Source: Escherichia phage AV111 | Sequence record: OR352941.1 | DNA: 64,000 nt | Direction: 5' to 3' (one strand) | Shown here: positions 4,876-59,032 of the stretch, piece after piece | Layout of the letters: every line of letters starts with the position of its first letter | Position numbering within the stretch: position 1 is the first letter of the stretch | The notes under the pieces: generated by a model | What the model was told of the DNA's origin: nothing | Seen by the model: the letters and a program-made list of their open reading frames with translations, nothing else | Databases searched by the model: none | Program-made: the position numbers and the translations under genes

Positions 4876-4958
4876 AAGTACCTCAATGCAATTGAAAATA
4901 TTATACAAATCATAGGGATACTAAGCAACCATATTCCAATCCACATTTTAGAGCTCAT
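4872..4958 (-). CDS. tiny hydrophobic protein (28 aa)
   Basis: ATG overlaps stop of ORF 4955..5218 (ATGA). Confidence 0.3.
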   Translation of the reverse strand: MSSKMWIGIWLLSIPMICIIFSIALRYL

Positions 4959-5218
4959 ATCTCAACTTCCGCGAGTTCCATATATCCTTTGTTGATAACC
5001 TCTTTAAGGTCTTTAGAAAGAATGACATTAAAATGGTCGTTCATATGTCCATTAACTAAACGAGTTATTTCGGCTTCAGATGACATATAAGGCACGTCCG
5101 AGTCCCAATGAGATAGACCCAAATGGGTATAAATCATCCCTTCGTCGTCTGCAGTGTTGTACATTGAAACAAATTCGCCTGTTACTTTATGTTTTGCGTA
5201 GAAAAATTTAAATTTCAT
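4955..5218 (-). CDS. hypothetical protein (87 aa)
   Basis: ORF in track, ATG start, own promoter. Confidence 0.5.
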   Translation of the reverse strand: MKFKFFYAKHKVTGEFVSMYNTADDEGMIYTHLGLSHWDSDVPYMSSEAEITRLVNGHMNDHFNVILSKDLKEVINKGYMELAEVEI

Positions 5219-5244
5219 GATGTTATCCTCTTTTAGATAGGACT

Positions 5245-5274
5245 ACTATATCATAGTCCTACTTAGTTGTAAAC
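5245..5274 (-). promoter_or_regulatory. early promoter (-35 GTTTAC, 18 nt, -10 TATAGT) with AGGACTA/TAGTCCT repeat around the -10
   Basis: read from sequence. Confidence 0.5.
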
Positions 5275-5286
5275 ACTTTTATGAAA

Positions 5287-5844
5287 TTAAAGATGAAGAT
5301 ACCACCCGTTGTAGTTGCTCTTGCGGACGATTTTCTTTAGGTCTTCATGGTCTCCCACGAACTTTATAGAATAGGAGAAGACGTCAGGTGAGGTTTCTTT
5401 GACATCTAATATAATAATGCAATCTGCGACTCGATGGTTCAAGAAGGGCCCTATATTGATTCCATTACCACCAGGATAATCACCACTGTATCCTGTGGTA
5501 ACCGAAATCCATTTAGAATCTATCTGGTGCGTCTTGACTTCGACACGCAACCCGCAATATTTAGGATGAGCTAACACGTCCCATGCATACGTGTACGGGT
5601 CTTCTACGTCTTCAATACCTTTATTAACATATCCATCTAGCCAATTTGCTACTACATACTCTGCAAAGACCGCAACCTTACAACGTCGAACAACGTCTTC
5701 TTTTATTTGACCTGGATCTTGTTTCAACGAGTACCGAGCAGTATCAGCGATCTTAACCTTCATTTCGCTAGTCAAAAACTCATTCGACAGGATAAATGTC
5801 GGAAGACTCTTCAGCCTCAACAGCCCCAAGTTCGTCTTTACCAT
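5287..5844 (-). CDS. denB: endonuclease IV DenB-like
   Basis: track ORF is 206 aa; internal ATG at 5844 with AGAGG RBS gives 185 aa, the T4 DenB length; synteny between ndd and rIIB. Confidence 0.7.
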   Translation of the reverse strand: MVKTNLGLLRLKSLPTFILSNEFLTSEMKVKIADTARYSLKQDPGQIKEDVVRRCKVAVFAEYVVANWLDGYVNKGIEDVEDPYTYAWDVLAHPKYCGLRVEVKTHQIDSKWISVTTGYSGDYPGGNGINIGPFLNHRVADCIIILDVKETSPDVFSYSIKFVGDHEDLKKIVRKSNYNGWYLHL

Positions 5845-6108: not shown

Positions 6109-7044
6109 TTATTCTGCAAATAATTCAGTAACGTCTGAAATTACTTCATAACGACAAGTACGCATCTTAGCATCACCATAGTCAACTGGGATAGATACAA
6201 CATCACGTGGATGAACTTTAACCTTAACAACTTTATCTGAGCTAGAACCAAAGTAACGAATATATGATTTAGCACAAACATGTAGACCACGGGAGCAGGT
6301 TTGAGTATCATCATCGTTAACACGAGTACGAGGCATTGAAACAACTTTACCAGGCGAGTTATCAAATGTGCCGCTATAGCAATCTAAATAGTCTTTACGA
6401 ACTACTTTCCACGCATAGAAATGCCCATCTTCAGTGATTTCAATATCGTTTGCAACCAAGAAGTCGAATAAACGTTGTACAGCTTTTTCGCTTGGGTTTT
6501 CTAACAGGTTTTCAAGGAACGGCAGATAGAATTTAAAGTCTTCGCCTTTTTCCATGGAATCAATAATACGATTAACCAGTCCTGAACGAATCTCTATACC
6601 TTGATAAAATAAACTACCACCTTCAATAGTAACATTACCATCAACAAACTTAGTAATAGCTTTCTTGATGTTAATAAGTTCGACAGCTTTACTAAGGTTT
6701 CCTGCGACCAGATTAGCTTTAATTTCTTCAAAATTTGCATGACTTGATGGGGTCGCATTGTATGCTACGCGTCCTTCAATAATTGAAATAAATTTAGATG
6801 ACGCGTTCCATACGATTTCAGGACGATGTCCGCCGATAATAGGTTCATCATTTTCTGGGACCTGTTCTTCGTCTTCAAATTCAGCTGCTTTCTCTTCAGC
6901 TTTAAAATTCTTAACAATCTTACGAAGAGTATCTGTTGAAATGTCAAAGTAATCGGCAATTTCTTTACGGGTCCATTTGCCTGATTTAACCAGGCCATAA
7001 GCTTCTAACTGTTCTTCTTGGGACAAGCATTTGATATTGTACAT
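6109..7044 (-). CDS. rIIB: rIIB protein
   Basis: 311 aa; MYNIKCL... N-terminus and length match T4 rIIB; coupled to rIIA. Confidence 0.9.
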   Translation of the reverse strand: MYNIKCLSQEEQLEAYGLVKSGKWTRKEIADYFDISTDTLRKIVKNFKAEEKAAEFEDEEQVPENDEPIIGGHRPEIVWNASSKFISIIEGRVAYNATPSSHANFEEIKANLVAGNLSKAVELINIKKAITKFVDGNVTIEGGSLFYQGIEIRSGLVNRIIDSMEKGEDFKFYLPFLENLLENPSEKAVQRLFDFLVANDIEITEDGHFYAWKVVRKDYLDCYSGTFDNSPGKVVSMPRTRVNDDDTQTCSRGLHVCAKSYIRYFGSSSDKVVKVKVHPRDVVSIPVDYGDAKMRTCRYEVISDVTELFAE

Positions 7045-27356: not shown

Positions 27357-27605
27357 TTATTCTTTTTCGCGAATAATAATTACTTGTTGAGGCTGCTGAG
27401 CAGATTTCTTTTCGGCGACGATAGACCAAATTAAAGTTCCAATCCAACCAATCATCGTCCAGTTAAAGAGTAAAGATACAAAGAAGATTGCTGTTGTGCT
27501 TTTTGTGCCACGAATAAGTGCGATTACCCAAGGCAACATGTAAATGATGATTGAACCAATACCTGCGATTAAAACTGCTACTGAACTAGCTACGAATAAT
27601 TCCAT
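27357..27605 (-). CDS. small membrane protein (82 aa)
   Basis: two hydrophobic segments. Confidence 0.5.
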   Translation of the reverse strand: MELFVASSVAVLIAGIGSIIIYMLPWVIALIRGTKSTTAIFFVSLLFNWTMIGWIGTLIWSIVAEKKSAQQPQQVIIIREKE

Positions 27606-27666
27606 GTTAATTTCCTCTTGATTTGTTATGTTTATAGTATCTTGTTTTAACTTTGGTGTAAACCAA

Positions 27667-28035
27667 TTAATTAAATTTGTTTAAACGTTCAATACACTGG
27701 ACGTAGTTATTCGCGATTTGTTTCTGGGTAGGCTCTTTACCAGTTGTTTCAACATAGCGAATGAATGCGATTTCAGTAGCCTGTAGACAATGTTCTTTAA
27801 CGCGTTGTTCTTTTGACAATGCTACGGTATCAGAGTCACGATAACGTTGAGCATGGGCATCAGCTTGAATCATTCGATTACCTACAGTAACCGGGTCTTC
27901 CACTTCAACTTTAGGTTGGTCGTACTGTTTAACATTCGGATTGTAAATCAATTGGCCGACGTTATTAGGGATAAAGCCATGGGCACCACATCCGGTTAAT
28001 CCAAATACCATTGCTAAAGCGATTAATTTTTTCAT
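27667..28035 (-). CDS. putative lipoprotein (122 aa)
   Basis: signal peptide with lipobox LTGC. Confidence 0.55.
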   Translation of the reverse strand: MKKLIALAMVFGLTGCGAHGFIPNNVGQLIYNPNVKQYDQPKVEVEDPVTVGNRMIQADAHAQRYRDSDTVALSKEQRVKEHCLQATEIAFIRYVETTGKEPTQKQIANNYVQCIERLNKFN

Positions 28036-28095: not shown

Positions 28096-28308
28096 CTATT
28101 TTAAACTTTTTCGAAATTTGCGTTTTTCTTGACGAATCTGTCGTTTAGTCGGACGTACAGCAAATTTAACGAAGTCTACTTTGCCGTGTGGAAACTTTTC
28201 AGATGCTTCGCAGTCCATCATTAGTTCCCATCCTTCCAGAATAAGAGCTTTCCATTGTGTAGTTGATGCAAATTCGTATGTTGATGGTTTAAACACAGTT
28301 GAATACAT
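28096..28308 (-). CDS. small basic protein, RPTKRQ-tail family (70 aa)
   Basis: ATG at 28308 with GAGGA RBS; C-terminal VRPTKRQIRQEKRKFRK. Confidence 0.5.
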   Translation of the reverse strand: MYSTVFKPSTYEFASTTQWKALILEGWELMMDCEASEKFPHGKVDFVKFAVRPTKRQIRQEKRKFRKSLK

Positions 28309-28309
28309 A

Positions 28310-28501
28310 TTATCCTCTGAAATCAGCTTCAAAAACTTTCTCGTCATTAATAAATGCTTTAACTAATGCATTGTTCACTTCAGCAAGTTGTACCGTAACC
28401 CACTCGATTTCTTCGCGATCACCTGATAACATGATATCTTTAGTGAACATCTCACCGCTTTTAAACCAACCGATAAAAGTAACTTTAGTTAATTTGCTCA
28501 T
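28310..28501 (-). CDS. dmd: Dmd-like protein (63 aa)
   Basis: ATG at 28501; position upstream of 41 region; recollection of T4 Dmd is weak. Confidence 0.45.
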   Translation of the reverse strand: MSKLTKVTFIGWFKSGEMFTKDIMLSGDREEIEWVTVQLAEVNNALVKAFINDEKVFEADFRG

Positions 28502-28815
28502 ATTTCCTCGCAAAAGGCCCATTCAGCGTGATAAACTGTAGCACCTTTAGTATTATTCATTTGAACTACGTCTACCGGAGAAATTACTCGATAGAGACGT
28601 GGTTCACCTCCATAAGAGCGTGCTGCTCGTCCTGCATAAATCTTTGCTAAACCGATATCTTCAGTAAAGAATACACGATCCAAGTTTTTCTTACGTCCAG
28701 TTTCAGACAGAACTCCTGTTTCTTCAGGAGGACAAAGCATGTTTTCGATGTTAGCTGAACTACTTGAACCGTGATAAAAAATCTTAAATTCTGCTTTACA
28801 ATCGATGGTTTTCAT
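28498..28815 (-). CDS. hypothetical protein (105 aa)
   Basis: ATG start, GGAG RBS. Confidence 0.5.
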   Translation of the reverse strand: MKTIDCKAEFKIFYHGSSSSANIENMLCPPEETGVLSETGRKKNLDRVFFTEDIGLAKIYAGRAARSYGGEPRLYRVISPVDVVQMNNTKGATVYHAEWAFCEEI

Positions 28816-54636: not shown

Positions 54637-56450
54637 TGGTGTTTAACCCTATGCATGATTTCTTTATTTTTGCCGAGATTAAATCCGCGTTCGTTCGGGT
54701 TTCCCAAATAACCGCATGTTCTTCTTATGGTGTTCATCTTTTTAGGATCAGTTTCTCCGCAAACTGAACAAACAAATCCGTTTTCAGTAGGAGTCATTTC
54801 ATGGGTACTTCCACATGTAAAACATTTATCTACTGGCATATTAACACCAAAATAATCTAAATGTTGTGCAGCATAATCCCACACGGCCTCAAGTCCTTTT
54901 AAGTTATTTTTCATATCAGGAAGTTCAACATAAGAAATGTGACCACCTGTCGCAATGAAATGATATGGCGCTTCACGAGAAATCTTTTCAAACGGAGTAA
55001 TATTTTCTTCTACTGAAACGTGGAAACTGTTAGTGTACCAGCCTTTATCGGTAACATCTTTTACACTTCCATATTTTTCTGTATCGAGTTTACAGAAGCG
55101 ATAACAAAGGTTTTCAGCAGGAGTAGAATACAAACTAAAAGCAAAACCAGTTCTTTCAGTCCACTGCTTAAGATGAGCATTCATTTTAGTTAAAATTTCT
55201 TGCCCAATATCACGGCCGACAAGAATATTCAATTCGTGAATACCAATGTATCCTAAAGACACTGAACTTCTACCGTTTTTAAATAACTCAATTATGTCGT
55301 CATCAGGTTTAAGACGAACCCCGAATGCACCTTCTTGGTAAAGAATAGGAGCTACAGTTGCTTTAACTCCTTTTAAGGAACTAATTCTACACATCAAAGC
55401 TTCAAAACACAGGTCCATTCGTTCGTTAAATAGCTCAACAAATTTCTGTTCATTGAACTGTGTTCCAATATAAGAATCTAACGCAATACGAGGAAGATTC
55501 AGTGTTACAACACCAAGATTATTACGTCCATCAAGAATTTCATTACCAGTCGAATCTTTCCATACGCTCAAGAAACTACGGCAACCCATTGGAGAAACTG
55601 GAACTGAAGAACCGGTAATAGCTTTATTATTCTTAACCGAAATAATGTCAGGATACATTCTTTTGCTTGCACATTCTAACGCAAGTTGTTTAATATCATA
55701 GTTTGGATCATCTTTATAAAGATTAACACCTTCTTCAACAAACATAACAAGTTTAGGAAAAATAGGAGTTATTCCATCACGACCAAGACCTTTAATGCGG
55801 TTTTTAAGAATTGCCTTCTGAATCATTCGTTCAGTCCAATCGGTTCCCGTACCAAATGTAATTGTTACAAAAGGAGTTTGTCCGTTTGAACTAAAGAGAG
55901 TGTTTACTTCATATTCATAAGCTTGGAATGCATCGTATACGTCTTTTTCTGTTTTAGATTGAGCATAATTCAACGCGTCAGCGATTTGCCATTTTTCTGC
56001 ATCTTCAACATGTTTAGCGTATGTACGTTTAACATAAGGAGAAAGAACTTTATCGACATTCGCAAAAGTCGTTCCGCCGTATTGGTGTGAAGCAACTTGT
56101 GCAGTAATTTGTGCCATAATTGCAGTAGCAACACCAATCGATTTAGGCGTTTCAATTTGAGCATTGCCTAATTTAAATCCGTTCTCAAGCATCCCTTTTA
56201 AATCTACTAAACAACAATTAGTAAAAGGCAATGATATACTGTAATCTAAATCATGAAAATGAATTAACCCGGCATTATGAGCATTTACAATATGGCTTGG
56301 AAGAATACTGCAAGCGATATGTTTAGAAACAATACCGGCCATTAAATCTCTTTTTGTTGGAAAGACACGAGAATCTTTGTTGGCGTTTTCGGTATTTAAT
56401 TCTTTATCTTTATTTGAAATAAAATTTAAAACATCTTTCTCTAAAGACAT
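54633..56450 (-). CDS. nrdD: anaerobic ribonucleoside-triphosphate reductase NrdD
   Basis: 605 aa; C-terminal glycyl-radical motif RTCGYLG; uninterrupted ORF. Confidence 0.95.
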   Translation of the reverse strand: MSLEKDVLNFISNKDKELNTENANKDSRVFPTKRDLMAGIVSKHIACSILPSHIVNAHNAGLIHFHDLDYSISLPFTNCCLVDLKGMLENGFKLGNAQIETPKSIGVATAIMAQITAQVASHQYGGTTFANVDKVLSPYVKRTYAKHVEDAEKWQIADALNYAQSKTEKDVYDAFQAYEYEVNTLFSSNGQTPFVTITFGTGTDWTERMIQKAILKNRIKGLGRDGITPIFPKLVMFVEEGVNLYKDDPNYDIKQLALECASKRMYPDIISVKNNKAITGSSVPVSPMGCRSFLSVWKDSTGNEILDGRNNLGVVTLNLPRIALDSYIGTQFNEQKFVELFNERMDLCFEALMCRISSLKGVKATVAPILYQEGAFGVRLKPDDDIIELFKNGRSSVSLGYIGIHELNILVGRDIGQEILTKMNAHLKQWTERTGFAFSLYSTPAENLCYRFCKLDTEKYGSVKDVTDKGWYTNSFHVSVEENITPFEKISREAPYHFIATGGHISYVELPDMKNNLKGLEAVWDYAAQHLDYFGVNMPVDKCFTCGSTHEMTPTENGFVCSVCGETDPKKMNTIRRTCGYLGNPNERGFNLGKNKEIMHRVKHQ

Positions 56451-57262
56451 AATTCTAATTTATCCTTTTGAAATTCTTCGTCTAAATATGGGTTCCAACC
56501 CATTTTAAACCTTTTGATGAAATTATCAATTCTAAATTTCGGTAAGTTTAAATCCGCAAAAATAGATGATTTACTTTTAAAATCTGGACCTAAATAATCA
56601 TATAAAATTTCTGCGTATTTTAACCATAATATATAAGTACCAGATTTAATTGCTCTCGGAGTTTTCCAAGGTTTTACACCATACATCGGATTTCCACTTC
56701 CTTTATGCCTGATAGAAGATGAAATTCCAATTTTAATTTTAGCTTCCTCTGTATGCGAAAATCCATGATGTGGATTTTCTTTCCAGTATTTTTTAGAAGC
56801 TTCTGATATTTTCTTTCTGGCTAAATTAGTATGATGCTTTCCATAAAATCCATGATTTTTACCTTTATTACGATTTCTTTTAATCATGGTTATTGATTGC
56901 TTTTTTCTAGTTTCTTTAGAAGGAGAAACACCATACGTTGTAAATTGACCATTAGCATATGCTAAATTAAAATACTCTTTATTCCATATATCTTTTTCTA
57001 TATTCTTTTGAAATTCAGCTTCAATGCTAGTTATTTGCTCATCTCCGACTAATTGAAAATATAATATTTCAACTTTCGGCGTTTCTTTCAACAGGGCTTT
57101 TTGAAATTCGGAAGATGACGAAGACGAATAATAAAATTTACCATTTTTATCAATAATATTCGTTCCGTCAAAAGTGCAATTAGTTTTACTTCCAATGTAA
57201 TAATATGGCGGGGTTTTAGCATTAATTCTATTAATAAATGATAGTTTATATACTACATTCAT
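56441..57262 (-). CDS. Seg-like GIY-YIG homing endonuclease
   Basis: YYYIGSK...NGKFYY N-terminal motif, NUMOD-like repeats; ATGA overlap with gene 49 stop and overlap with nrdD start. Confidence 0.7.
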   Translation of the reverse strand: MNVVYKLSFINRINAKTPPYYYIGSKTNCTFDGTNIIDKNGKFYYSSSSSSEFQKALLKETPKVEILYFQLVGDEQITSIEAEFQKNIEKDIWNKEYFNLAYANGQFTTYGVSPSKETRKKQSITMIKRNRNKGKNHGFYGKHHTNLARKKISEASKKYWKENPHHGFSHTEEAKIKIGISSSIRHKGSGNPMYGVKPWKTPRAIKSGTYILWLKYAEILYDYLGPDFKSKSSIFADLNLPKFRIDNFIKRFKMGWNPYLDEEFQKDKLELCL

Positions 57263-57732
57263 TTTAAACTCTTTCTAAGCTGCTTTTTGAATGAAGCTAT
57301 TAATTGTGTTTTAGTATCAGATTCATTATATTCAAATCCTCTTTGAAGCATCTCAGCCATCATTTCCTCTTTGCCTAGTCTTGAGAACTCTTTAGTTTTG
57401 TCTGGAACAAAATTAGGATGGATATTATTATCAGAATAATCTTGTTTCAAATAAGCAAGAAGAGCTTCAAGCCATTCGAGGTAGTCAACATCACGTCCTT
57501 TAAGACCGGAACGATTGAACTTATGCTTCATTTGGCCTTCTGCTGCGTTGCACAGAGAACAGAGTAACCCACGAACTCTACCGGCTTTTGGCCCGTTTAA
57601 TTCGTGGTCGTGGTCAAGATGGTTACCTTGAACATCAGGGTCTAATTCACGGTGGCAAATAGGACACTTACCATTCTGTGCATCATAAAATTTTTGTTTT
57701 TCTTCTTTGTATAATTTGCCAGATAATAACAT
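57259..57732 (-). CDS. 49: endonuclease VII gp49 (Holliday junction resolvase)
   Basis: 157 aa; near-identical to T4 gp49 as recalled. Confidence 0.95.
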   Translation of the reverse strand: MLLSGKLYKEEKQKFYDAQNGKCPICHRELDPDVQGNHLDHDHELNGPKAGRVRGLLCSLCNAAEGQMKHKFNRSGLKGRDVDYLEWLEALLAYLKQDYSDNNIHPNFVPDKTKEFSRLGKEEMMAEMLQRGFEYNESDTKTQLIASFKKQLRKSLK

Positions 57733-57762
57733 AATAAACCCTTACCATATATAAGATAAGGG

Positions 57763-57770
57763 TATTTATA
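57763..57770 (-). promoter_or_regulatory. late promoter TATAAATA (minus strand) about 31 nt upstream of the gene 49 ATG
   Basis: exact late consensus octamer. Confidence 0.55.
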
Positions 57771-57772
57771 AT

Positions 57773-57952
57773 TTAGTAAACGTTATAAAAGTCTCGATGA
57801 AAACGTTTATACTGTCGAATCATTCTTTTAGTAGGACGTGTTACCGAAATGATTGAAGTCCTCATGTTCGGATTGTTTGGAGCCCCAATCATAATAAATT
57901 TCCAGGATTTTTGGCCGTTTGTTCTTTCGCCATAAAATAGTTCAGTTTTCAT
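57773..57952 (-). CDS. small basic protein, RPTKRQ-tail family (59 aa)
   Basis: C-terminal VTRPTKRMIRQYKRFHRDFY; below ORF-track cutoff. Confidence 0.4.
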   Translation of the reverse strand: MKTELFYGERTNGQKSWKFIMIGAPNNPNMRTSIISVTRPTKRMIRQYKRFHRDFYNVY

Positions 57953-57961
57953 AATAAACCT

Positions 57962-58375
57962 TTAACTTAAACGTCTTTCTAAATATTCAATGTATTCCGC
58001 TGCGGCTTGCATCAGATTACCTTCATAACCGTCATTATTTTCTTGGGCGGCTAATTTAGCTAAAGCATAAGAAATACGTTCACCTTCGAATTCGCCAAGT
58101 CCACCATCACAAACTACTTGGTCAATTTCTTCGAGTTCATCTATTGAATGGGATTCCCAGAAGCACCAAAGAGAAGTATCACGGTCATAGATGCAAAGTT
58201 TCTCACCTGTGTTCAACATCACTTCAATAATGCCATGGTCGCCATAACCATCTTCGGTAGTAGTGCCAATTACCTTGATGATTGTTCCTTTCTTTAATTC
58301 AGGAAACTTATCTTGGAGTTCTTCGTCATCTTTAACAATCTTGAACCACTTACCACGTGTGTCAGAAATATTCAT
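57962..58375 (-). CDS. hypothetical protein (137 aa)
   Basis: ATG at 58375 with GAGGA RBS; track ORF over-extended. Confidence 0.5.
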   Translation of the reverse strand: MNISDTRGKWFKIVKDDEELQDKFPELKKGTIIKVIGTTTEDGYGDHGIIEVMLNTGEKLCIYDRDTSLWCFWESHSIDELEEIDQVVCDGGLGEFEGERISYALAKLAAQENNDGYEGNLMQAAAEYIEYLERRLS

Positions 58376-58376
58376 A

Positions 58377-58547
58377 TCAATATCCTCTATAAAAGTTGCG
58401 ATGCGTGCGTTTCGCTTTGCGAAGCTGACGTTTAGTTGGTCGAACCGTAAATGGTCGTCCGGAGAAAAAATTCGGATCGGTTTTAATAAGCAAATACCAA
58501 TCATGCTTGCCATTTTTTAATAAACGGTACAATAATTTAACTTGCAT
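58377..58547 (-). CDS. small basic protein, RPTKRQ-tail family (56 aa)
   Basis: ATG at 58547; C-terminal TVRPTKRQLRKAKRTHRNFY. Confidence 0.4.
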   Translation of the reverse strand: MQVKLLYRLLKNGKHDWYLLIKTDPNFFSGRPFTVRPTKRQLRKAKRTHRNFYRGY

Positions 58548-58675: not shown

Positions 58676-59032
58676 TTAACCCCGGAGTTTATTGAGCTCT
58701 TCATAATCAATCCAGGATTCTAGCCCTGACGGCAGGTCACATTCAATGTTCCACAGAAGCTCTTCAATGGCTTGCAGGCGATTATATTCTTCAACGGTAA
58801 TGGTAACCATTGGTGCAACCGGTTCTGCCTTTTTAACCATCATGTCGTTCATCAGGACGTAAAGGTCATCACGAACGACAGTGTCGTTCCATCCCCATGA
58901 TTTGGCTTCGTAAGCTAATGATGAAGGGAGCACATTTAAAACTTCAATAATAGTTGGAGCATCAGGACCAAGTTCATTGGCACAAACTTCGTATACATCT
59001 TGGAAATCTTTAAGATTTAATGAATATGTCAT
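58676..59032 (-). CDS. hypothetical protein (118 aa)
   Basis: ORF in track. Confidence 0.5.
   Translation of the reverse strand: MTYSLNLKDFQDVYEVCANELGPDAPTIIEVLNVLPSSLAYEAKSWGWNDTVVRDDLYVLMNDMMVKKAEPVAPMVTITVEEYNRLQAIEELLWNIECDLPSGLESWIDYEELNKLRG

What the first reader, a model, noticed from the sequence alone, without database searches (positions are those of the whole stretch)
57773..58547. Family of small proteins ending in a basic VRPTKRQ tail
Three small ORFs (28096..28308, 57773..57952 and 58377..58547) end in (V/T)RPTKR(Q/M)(I/L)R followed by K/R-rich residues and FY. Two of them flank the gene at 57962..58375. The conserved arginine-rich tail suggests nucleic-acid or ribosome binding. 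Two of the three fall below the ORF-track length cutoff or are mis-started in the track.
Basis: seen in the sequence. Interest (0 to 1): 0.4.

Follow-up and report, generated by a model that had tools for sequence, protein, structure and literature searches.

The report
TifA and two short paralogs
The three small genes are real relatives of each other: one is the known phage protein TifA, which binds RNA and disarms the bacterial ToxN defence toxin, and the other two are shorter, unstudied copies of it flanking a protease-inhibitor gene.

Summary
Three minus-strand ORFs share RPTKR plus a basic helix: A 28096..28308, B 57773..57952, C 58377..58547. The motif occurs 3 times against 0.05 expected. 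All three exceed Pfam's cut-off for DUF7279, and a family HMM finds no fourth copy in the window.

Copy A lies just after dmd and is 100% identical to RB69 gp61.4, which is TifA. TifA is the published inhibitor of the ToxN toxin. Its Pro-Thr-capped basic helix binds RNA, and that binding is needed to inhibit ToxN (PMC9391042, PMC10853763).

B and C (PHROG 3272) flank pinA at the end of an early operon.
- They are under purifying selection (dN/dS about 0.04-0.2).
- The B model keeps the TifA core fold, and both copies keep every tested RNA-binding residue.
- They lack TifA's N-terminal hairpin and have a shorter specificity loop.
- They are annotated only as hypothetical proteins. I found no paper on them, and none of the ten homologs tested in PMC10853763 is a short form.
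- Each copy is present or absent among near-identical phages. T4 and T2 keep only a B-tail remnant fused to PinA.

Most likely B and C are RNA-binding TifA-like inhibitors of a different host RNase. This is inferred, not shown. Verdict: a known family with new, untested short members; modest interest.

The parts
28096..28308 (-). Copy A: tifA (T4 gene 61.4 ortholog), 70 aa, inhibitor of the ToxN toxin
   Evidence: 100% protein identity to RB69 gp61.4. Pfam DUF7279 at 71.7 bits and phrog_2375. Lies between dmd and the genes that precede sp, as in T4. AF2 model pLDDT 83: strands 2-6, 9-13, 19-23, 27-33, 43-49 and helix 55-69. SD AGGA; the ATG is 1 nt after the dmd stop.
28108..28155 (-). Copy A RNA-binding element: R52-P53-T54 cap plus basic helix residues K55 R56 R59 K62 R63 R66
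   Evidence: Motif position. [quoted passage not shown]
28310..28522 (-). dmd (antitoxin against RnlA/LsoA), directly upstream of and co-transcribed with copy A. The start may instead be the ATG at 28501, as annotated in relatives.
   Evidence: The translation matches T4 Dmd. The dmd-tifA operon is described in PMC9391042.
58377..58547 (-). Copy C: short TifA paralog, 56 aa, directly upstream of pinA
   Evidence: Pfam DUF7279 at 50.8 bits and phrog_3272 at E 3.5e-25. 38% identical to B. dN/dS 0.11-0.13 against orthologs. SD-like GGGAAGAG; the start overlaps the end of the 49.1-like ORF by 11 nt. Annotated with this start in phage mogra.
58398..58442 (-). Copy C RPTKR cap and basic helix (R36..R50)
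   Evidence: All six basic positions of the TifA helix are conserved.
57962..58375 (-). pinA, inhibitor of host Lon protease, 137 aa, flanked by C and B
   Evidence: PF10465 at 164.8 bits and phrog_2167. The ATG is 1 nt after the stop of C, and its SD GAGGA lies inside the 3' end of C.
57773..57952 (-). Copy B: short TifA paralog, 59 aa (ortholog of RB69ORF087c), between pinA and gene 49
   Evidence: Pfam DUF7279 at 53.1 bits and phrog_3272 at E 3.8e-30. AF2 model pLDDT 87: strands 2-9, 15-24, 27-36 and helix 42-58. dN/dS 0.04-0.20 across orthologs. SD AAGG, 9 nt after the pinA stop. Orthologs occupy this slot in Tequatrovirus, Gaprivervirus and Mosigvirus.
57794..57838 (-). Copy B RPTKR cap and basic helix (R39..R53)
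   Evidence: The helix begins right after P40-T41 in the model.
57738..57763 (-). Terminator-like hairpin that closes the nrdC...C-pinA-B transcription unit, just before gene 49
   Evidence: Consensus scan: 9-bp stem followed by a T run. The equivalent site is annotated as a terminator in phage OE5505.
58537..58710 (-). Context: homolog of T4 gp49.1, upstream of copy C. The likely start is the ATG at 58704.
   Evidence: The translation matches T4 and RB69 gp49.1. phrog_2382.
57259..57732 (-). Context: gene 49, endonuclease VII
   Evidence: The translation and the annotation of relatives.

Best explanation
The three ORFs are paralogs of one small-protein family, TifA (Pfam DUF7279), in a T4-like (Mosigvirus, RB69-like) coliphage.

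Copy A is TifA itself. It is an early protein with a small beta-sheet and a C-terminal basic alpha-helix capped by Pro-Thr. It binds RNA through the helix and the host endoribonuclease toxin ToxN through the sheet and loop side. This holds ToxN in an inactive RNA-protein complex, largely on 16S rRNA, so the ToxIN abortive-infection system cannot destroy phage transcripts. That part is shown by published experiments on the identical protein.

Copies B and C are expressed, selected, minimal versions of the same fold. They are translated from the tail of the early nrdC...49.1-C-pinA-B operon. They keep the whole RNA-binding helix, so they most likely bind RNA in the same way (inferred, about 0.75). 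They lack TifA's extra N-terminal hairpin, and the loop that carries TifA's ToxN-specificity residue 41 is 3-6 residues shorter. I therefore infer that they use the same RNA-dependent sequestration mechanism against a different host target. That target would be another RNase toxin or defence nuclease, or a ToxN variant that TifA does not cover (inferred, about 0.4-0.5).

Their position beside PinA and their gene-sized gain and loss among near-identical phages fit accessory counter-defence genes.
For: Shown here:
- Family membership of all three. Short and long profiles align at 97.4% probability, E 1.2e-11.
- A is 100% identical to RB69 TifA and lies in the dmd-tifA position.
- The residues whose mutation abolishes RNA binding and ToxN neutralisation (P53 T54 K55 R56 R59) are invariant in A, B and C, as are K62, R63 and R66.
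- The AF2 model of B (pLDDT 87) is a three-stranded sheet plus a C-terminal helix that starts after the PT. This matches the published description of TifA and my model of A.
- B and C are highly basic: pI 10.8 and 11.4, net charge +9 and +13.
- Purifying selection: dN/dS 0.04-0.20 for B and 0.11-0.13 for C.
- Plausible SD sequences and tight coupling within an operon that ends at a terminator.
- Accessory-gene behaviour: mogra (95-98% identical flanks) lacks A and B by clean deletions and keeps C. SF has B only. RB69 has A, B and a frameshifted C. T4 and T2 have A only.

From the literature:
- TifA mechanism and specificity (PMC9391042, PMC10853763).
- Six long-form TifA homologs neutralised none of the ToxN or TenpN proteins tested, which suggests that family members differ in specificity.
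- The dmd-tifA-adfA region has been proposed as an anti-TA island.

Context: PinA inhibits Lon. The 118-aa ORF upstream carries a domain that PHROGs labels as an antitoxin (phrog_3402, E 1e-32).
Against: - There is no experimental data on B or C. RNA binding and any target are inferred from homology and a predicted structure, and C itself was not modelled.
- Structural similarity between the short and long forms rests on secondary-structure order and the profile alignment. The Foldseek cross-hits between them are weak.
- The N-terminal third does not align reliably between the forms.
- Frequent loss of each copy (mogra, SF, T4, T2, and the frameshift in RB69) shows none is essential. This is also compatible with weak or redundant function.
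- Proximity to pinA is not obligatory. VR20 keeps B beside a degenerate pin, and mogra keeps pin without B.
- The PHROG antitoxin label on the neighbouring ORF was not tested here.
Confidence: 0.6

Rival explanations
1. B and C are general RNA- or ribosome-binding host-takeover factors, for example mRNA protection, translation modulation or an RNA chaperone role. They would have no specific toxin partner and would share only the RNA-binding helix with TifA.
For: Only the helix and its adjoining strands are conserved with TifA. B and C lack the hairpin and have a shorter loop on the side thought to contact ToxN. TifA binds RNA, ssDNA and dsDNA without evident sequence specificity and co-purifies with 16S rRNA. 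B and C are very basic, pI 10.8-11.4.
Against: The authors argue that TifA does not work by simply coating RNA, because it shows toxin specificity. A general housekeeping role fits poorly with gene-sized loss in near-identical phages and with absence from T4 and T2. The sheet regions of B orthologs are also under purifying selection, not just the helix.
Confidence: 0.25
2. B and C are accessory partners of PinA and the Lon pathway, for example by delivering PinA to nucleic-acid-bound Lon or modulating its activity. That would explain why they flank pinA and why a B tail is fused to PinA in T4 and T2.
For: Tight C-pinA-B packing with 1-nt and 9-nt spacers. The B slot next to pin is conserved across three genera. 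T4 and T2 PinA carry the last 15 residues of B fused in frame.
Against: The association is breakable in both directions. VR20 keeps an intact B next to a fragmented pin. Mogra and T4 keep pin without a functional B, and SF lacks C. The T4 fusion removes the sheet and the RPTK motif, so it looks like a deletion scar and not a functional domain fusion. The closest characterised relative acts on an RNase, not on Lon.
Confidence: 0.08
3. The shared motif is not a functional protein feature. B and C would be decaying duplicates or chance ORFs, or the similarity would reflect a repeated DNA or RNA regulatory element at gene ends.
For: The ORFs are very short (56-59 aa), are annotated only as hypothetical, and are often missing or frameshifted in relatives.
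Against: dN/dS is 0.04-0.20 over orthologs with dS up to 0.9 or more. The motif codons differ at synonymous sites between copies. The Pfam and PHROG matches are significant. The model of B is confident and folded. All copies have SD sequences. The motif count is far above chance.
Confidence: 0.03

Closest known systems
TifA (ToxN inhibitory factor A; T4 gp61.4 and RB69 gp61.4; Pfam DUF7279 PF23945; phrog_2375)
   Same: Copy A is this protein: 100% identical to the RB69 form and in the same dmd-adjacent position. B and C match the same Pfam family. They share the Trp strand, the third strand, the Pro-Thr cap and all six conserved basic helix positions. The B model has the same sheet-plus-C-terminal-helix fold.
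   Different: B and C are 56-59 aa, against 70-98 aa for every tested TifA homolog. They lack the residue 8-24 hairpin of TifA. Their loop is 3 (B) or 6 (C) residues shorter where TifA carries the ToxN-specificity residue 41. They end in HRxFY. They belong to a separate PHROG (3272). They lie 30 kb away, around pinA, not next to dmd. Their target and RNA binding are untested.
Dmd (T4 gp61.5), phage antitoxin against the RnlA and LsoA RNase toxins
   Same: A small (about 60 aa) early T4-type protein that neutralises a host endoribonuclease toxin. It is encoded in the same operon as copy A. Conceptually it is the same class of phage-encoded antitoxin.
   Different: There is no sequence relationship. 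Dmd is described as a direct inhibitor of RnlA (PMC9391042), whereas TifA needs RNA binding. Dmd does not carry the PT-capped basic helix.
Other small T4-like phage proteins with weak matches: phrog_12748, phrog_8921, phrog_15176, and BFVD models from phages S16, Merlin and CBH8
   Same: Uncharacterised proteins of 54-92 aa from T4-like phages. They match the basic helix region in sequence or the B model in predicted structure. Merlin's 54-aa protein has TMq 0.83.
   Different: The matches are weaker (E 1e-9 to 0.1, 22-34% identity). Nothing is known of their function or context, and I did not examine them further.

Membership tests
TifA / Pfam DUF7279 (PF23945) | Profile-HMM match above the curated gathering score (24.5 bits) | tested here: met
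   A 71.7, B 53.1 and C 50.8 bits. All database relatives of B and C also carry PF23945.
TifA / Pfam DUF7279 (PF23945) | Conserved Pro-Thr helix cap followed by basic residues equivalent to K55, R56 and R59 (needed for RNA binding and ToxN neutralisation; PMC10853763) | tested here: met
   R-P-T-K-R..R..K-R..R is invariant in A, B and C and in their orthologs.
TifA / Pfam DUF7279 (PF23945) | [quoted passage not shown] | tested here: met
   AF2 models: B has E2-9, E15-24, E27-36 and H42-58 at pLDDT 87. A has the same core plus an extra hairpin at pLDDT 83. C was not modelled; it is 38% identical to B and in the same PHROG. No solved structure exists for comparison.
TifA / Pfam DUF7279 (PF23945) | Genomic position: second gene of the dmd-tifA early operon | tested here: met
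   Met for A only. B and C do not meet it; they flank pinA about 30 kb away.
TifA sensu stricto (ToxN-neutralising subgroup: T2, T4, T6, RB69) | Loop bearing specificity residue 41 and the N-terminal region predicted to contact ToxN | tested here: not met
   This verdict is for B and C. The segment between the Trp strand and the last strand is 3 (B) or 6 (C) residues shorter, and the residue 8-24 hairpin is absent. A meets the feature, being identical to RB69 TifA with H41.
TifA sensu stricto (ToxN-neutralising subgroup: T2, T4, T6, RB69) | Binds RNA in vitro and rescues cells from ToxN | not testable with these tools
   Published for the protein identical to A. There are no data for B or C, and none of the ten homologs tested in PMC10853763 is a short form.
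PinA peptidase inhibitor (PF10465), for the gene between B and C | Full-length profile match above the gathering score (27 bits) | tested here: met
   164.8 bits over residues 7-137 against profile positions 2-136 of 136; phrog_2167 'inhibitor of host Lon protease'.
Repeated DNA element (regulatory cassette at gene ends) | Nucleotide-level identity between copies beyond what the protein requires | tested here: not met
   The motif codons differ at synonymous positions. Pairwise dS between the paralogs is 1.15-1.5.

The most novel reading that the evidence does not exclude
B and C define a minimal (56-59 aa) subclass of TifA-like RNA-glue antitoxins that neutralise host RNase toxins or defence nucleases other than the ToxN variants covered by TifA. 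Together with PinA and the neighbouring ORF that PHROGs labels as an antitoxin, they would form a second anti-TA and counter-defence islet in T-even-like phages. Their gene-by-gene presence or absence (A/B/C, B only, C only, A only) would then help set host range. A corollary is that the intact copy B of RB69, which T4 and T2 lack, might contribute to RB69's relative resistance to toxIN.
Probability: 0.35. Interest if true: 0.55.

Novelty: new member of a known kind. Interest (0 to 1): 0.3.

Why it matters
TifA is one of the few phage counter-defence proteins with a worked-out and unusual mechanism: RNA-dependent trapping of an RNase toxin.

Many T-even-like phages turn out to carry one or two extra, stripped-down paralogs. 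C-type genes at 80% identity or more occur in 145 phage records, and the B query hits 355 records (some of these are cross-hits to C genes). These paralogs retain the whole RNA-binding helix but differ on the target-facing side. That gives concrete, cheap candidates for new anti-toxin specificities, and a natural minimal scaffold for separating RNA binding from target recognition.

It also links an unnamed Pfam family (DUF7279) and PHROG 3272 to a known function. It further shows that the reference T4 and T2 PinA sequence carries a 15-residue scar of such a gene.

It changes nothing fundamental. The family, the fold and the mechanism of the founding member are already published.

Tried and rejected
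1. DNA-repeat explanation. Rejected: codons differ at synonymous sites and dS between paralogs exceeds 1.
2. More copies. A regex scan and a family-HMM scan of all six frames of the window find only three. The complete genome of the close relative mogra holds a single copy, C. The rest of this phage's own genome is outside the window and could not be scanned.
3. Solved-structure relatives. Foldseek against the PDB gives nothing (best E 0.66).
4. Structural cross-match of long and short forms in BFVD. This is only weak: the Merlin 54-aa protein appears in both lists, and TifA-like long forms do not appear in B's list. The shared-fold claim therefore rests on secondary-structure order plus the profile alignment.
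5. NCBIfam and PADLOC give no hits.
6. Literature. Nothing on DUF7279, RB69ORF087c or RB69ORF089c, and no mention of paralogs or pinA in the two TifA papers. I could not tell whether any short form was among the 57 sequences of the eLife tree, which required full query coverage.
7. Word-indexed protein searches returned few clusters (9 and 2). The exhaustive profile search of 1.84 billion representatives returned 12 hits at E<=1e-3. About seven are real family members or fragments. The multi-stretch hits in long proteins look like low-complexity noise: the one I read, P0013, is a repetitive sequence, and the others were not inspected.
8. Obligatory PinA partnership. Weakened by VR20, mogra and SF.
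9. An apparent S16T difference between copy A and the RB69 TifA sequence in the supplement PDF was a text-extraction artefact. tblastn shows 100% identity.
10. The pair L006/L016 gives dN/dS 0.56 for C, but on only 8 substitutions, so it is uninformative.

Full report
**What is in the sequence**

The window comes from a T4-like coliphage. Its closest relatives (JK42, ST0, mogra, APCEc01) include members of the genus Mosigvirus, the genus of RB69.

- A: 28096..28308, 70 aa.
- B: 57773..57952, 59 aa.
- C: 58377..58547, 56 aa.

They share M1, a Trp in the second core strand, and the block R-P-T-K-R-x-x-R-x-x-K-R-x-x-R. RPTKR occurs three times in the six-frame translation, against 0.05 expected and at most 1 in 200 shuffles. 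A family HMM scanned over all 1244 stop-to-stop ORFs of the window finds these three at E 1e-19 to 1e-26 and nothing else better than E 0.11.

The motif codons differ at synonymous sites, and dS between the paralogs exceeds 1, so the conservation is in the protein and not in a DNA repeat. One correction: only B and C end in FY.

**Which family**

All three exceed the Pfam gathering score for DUF7279 (PF23945). In PHROGs, A falls in phrog_2375 and B and C in phrog_3272, both of unknown function. The gene between B and C is PinA, the inhibitor of host Lon protease.

Copy A lies one nucleotide after the stop of dmd. That is the position of T4 gene 61.4, whose product carries the same VRPTKRQIRQ.KR.FRK block. 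[quoted passage not shown] By tblastn, copy A is 100% identical to RB69 gp61.4. RB69 gp61.4 is the TifA variant used for the biochemical work.

**What is known about TifA** (PMC10853763)

- The protein binds RNA with KD 0.36-2.3 uM.
- P53A/T54A and K55A/R56A/R59A abolish co-purification with RNA, rescue from ToxN and co-immunoprecipitation with ToxN.
- Residue 41 in the loop tunes ToxN inhibition.
- Six other long-form homologs neutralised none of the toxins tested.

The numbering fits the 70-aa start at 28308, not the 83-aa ATG that overlaps dmd.

**What B and C are**

They are short paralogs. None of the ten homologs tested in that paper is shorter than 70 aa, and none resembles B or C. Neither paper mentions paralogs or pinA. 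I found no paper on DUF7279 or on the RB69 ORFs 087c and 089c. NCBIfam and PADLOC have no model for them.

Evidence that they are real genes:
- dN/dS is 0.04-0.20 for B orthologs and 0.11-0.13 for C orthologs compared with the window copy.
- Each has a Shine-Dalgarno-like sequence.
- They are tightly coupled in the order 49.1-like ORF, C, pinA, B. C overlaps the upstream ORF by 11 nt, the pinA ATG lies 1 nt after the stop of C, and the B ATG lies 9 nt after the pinA stop.
- The unit ends at a terminator-like hairpin, 57763..57738, which is annotated as a terminator in a relative.

Structure:
- The AF2 model of B (pLDDT 87) has strands 2-9, 15-24 and 27-36, and a helix 42-58 that begins right after P40-T41.
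- My model of A (pLDDT 83) has the same core: strand 2-6, the Trp strand 27-33, strand 43-49 and helix 55-69. It also has an extra lower-confidence hairpin at 9-23 and a 9-residue loop at 34-42.
- The short and long profiles align from the Trp strand to the end of the helix at 97.4% probability, E 1.2e-11.
- Compared with A, the short forms lack the N-terminal hairpin. Their segment between the Trp strand and the last strand is 3 (B) or 6 (C) residues shorter. That segment is the region carrying TifA residue 41.
- B and C are very basic: pI 10.8 and 11.4.
- No solved structure resembles the fold.
- The best predicted-structure neighbours are 54-64-aa uncharacterised proteins of other T4-like phages: S16, Merlin and CBH8.

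**Distribution and dynamics**

The short form is narrow. It makes 9 clusters in the 5.8-billion-protein index. Only a handful of true relatives appear among 1.84 billion representatives.

In the 50,697-record phage collection:

| Query | Records with a match | Notes |
|---|---|---|
| A | 639 | 68 at 95% identity or more |
| B | 355 | includes cross-hits to C genes at about 40% identity |
| C | 211 | 145 at 80% identity or more |

Every hit listed is annotated hypothetical or not annotated at all.

The B slot, between pin and gene 49, is occupied in Tequatrovirus (OE5505), Gaprivervirus (VR20) and Mosigvirus (SF, RB69). Among the loci I read, C occurs only in relatives of this phage. The relatives whose taxonomy I saw are Mosigvirus.

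Each copy behaves as a gene-sized indel:

| Phage | A (tifA) | B | C |
|---|---|---|---|
| This window | present | present | present |
| mogra (95-98% identical flanks) | absent, clean deletion | absent, clean deletion | present (only copy in 168.7 kb) |
| SF (pin locus only) | not examined | present | absent |
| RB69 | present | intact (ORF087c) | frameshifted by one extra A in an A6 run |
| T4 | present | 15-residue remnant fused to PinA | absent |
| T2 | present | 15-residue remnant fused to PinA | absent |

In T4 and T2, a 137-bp deletion has joined the last 15 residues of B in frame to PinA. This makes PinA 161 aa long.

**Mechanism proposed**

For A, the mechanism is the published one. 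For B and C, I infer RNA binding through the conserved PT-capped helix. I also infer, by analogy, RNA-dependent sequestration of a host nuclease other than the ToxN variants that TifA covers. Specificity would be set by the divergent sheet and loop side.

Supporting context:
- The family shows toxin specificity, and the tested long-form homologs that neutralised nothing suggest other specificities.
- The dmd-tifA-adfA region has been proposed as an anti-TA island.
- B and C lie next to PinA. The C-terminal 55 residues of the upstream 118-aa ORF match a PHROG labelled as an antitoxin.
- Patchy presence and absence is typical of counter-defence genes.

None of this is experimental for B or C.

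Rivals:
- A general RNA- or ribosome-binding role with no specific partner.
- A PinA or Lon accessory role. This is weakened because B survives next to a degenerate pin in VR20, and pin survives without B in mogra, T4 and T2.
- Non-functional relics. This is contradicted by the selection analysis.

**Verdict**

One member is an already characterised protein, and the family is already in Pfam and PHROGs. What is new is modest but concrete. Two unstudied minimal paralogs flank pinA. An unnamed Pfam family is linked to TifA. The paralogs show a clear gain-and-loss pattern, including a scar in T4 PinA. I rate it a new member of a known kind, interest about 0.3.

Noticed in passing
L002 (T4 NC_000866) 4898-5383; compare L003 (OE5505) 1055-1677; T2 L022 7705-8190: The reference T4 and T2 PinA (161 aa) is a fusion. 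A 137-bp deletion relative to Tequatrovirus OE5505 removes the last codons of pin and the first ~43 codons of the short DUF7279 gene. This joins its last 15 residues (MIQQYKRLHQMFYNT) in frame to PinA. PinA is 148 aa in OE5505 and 137 aa in this window.
   Followed up: yes
L021 (RB69 NC_004928) 6376-6516: RB69's copy C is frameshifted by one extra A in a poly-A run (A6 in the window, A7 in RB69), so only a 38-aa fragment (RB69ORF089c) is annotated. It could be a real pseudogene, a sequencing error or a slippage-prone site. RB69's copy B (ORF087c) is intact.
   Followed up: partly
window 28096..28308 and 57773..57961, compared with mogra MN850579 155184 and 127886: Phage mogra has 95-98% identical flanks but lacks tifA and copy B through clean, gene-sized deletions of about 200 bp, and keeps copy C. 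No long flanking repeats are evident at the junctions.
   Followed up: partly
window 58676..59032 (-): The C-terminal 55 residues of the 118-aa ORF two genes upstream of copy C match phrog_3402, labelled 'antitoxin from a toxin-antitoxin system' (E 1e-32). T2 encodes this domain as a separate 56-aa ORF annotated as an antitoxin. There is no Pfam match. I did not trace the basis of the PHROG label.
   Followed up: partly
window 56441..57262 (-): A 273-aa ORF just downstream of gene 49 is annotated as a SegG-type or other homing endonuclease in the closest relatives. Only 5 of 860 matching phage records cover at least 80% of the 3.3-kb query that includes it, so it is probably a mobile insertion between gene 49 and nrdD.
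   Followed up: no
L004 (VR20 KP007360) 1059-1501: In Gaprivervirus VR20 the pin gene is reduced to a 57-aa C-terminal fragment followed by an unrelated 89-aa ORF, while the adjacent short DUF7279 gene (61 aa) is intact.
   Followed up: no
protein cluster P0012 (26 member sequences): The representative of a TifA (RB69-type) cluster reads VVRLTKRQ instead of AVRPTKRQ. That is an A50V and a P53L change in the Pro-Thr helix cap. The published P53A/T54A double mutant abolishes RNA binding and ToxN neutralisation, so this could be a natural loss-of-function variant or a sequencing error.
   Followed up: no
window 27357..28035 (-): Immediately downstream of tifA lie a 122-aa predicted lipoprotein (DUF5481, phrog_1754) and an 82-aa Imm-like membrane protein. 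T4 has sp directly after 61.4. The proposed anti-TA island thus has a different gene content here.
   Followed up: no
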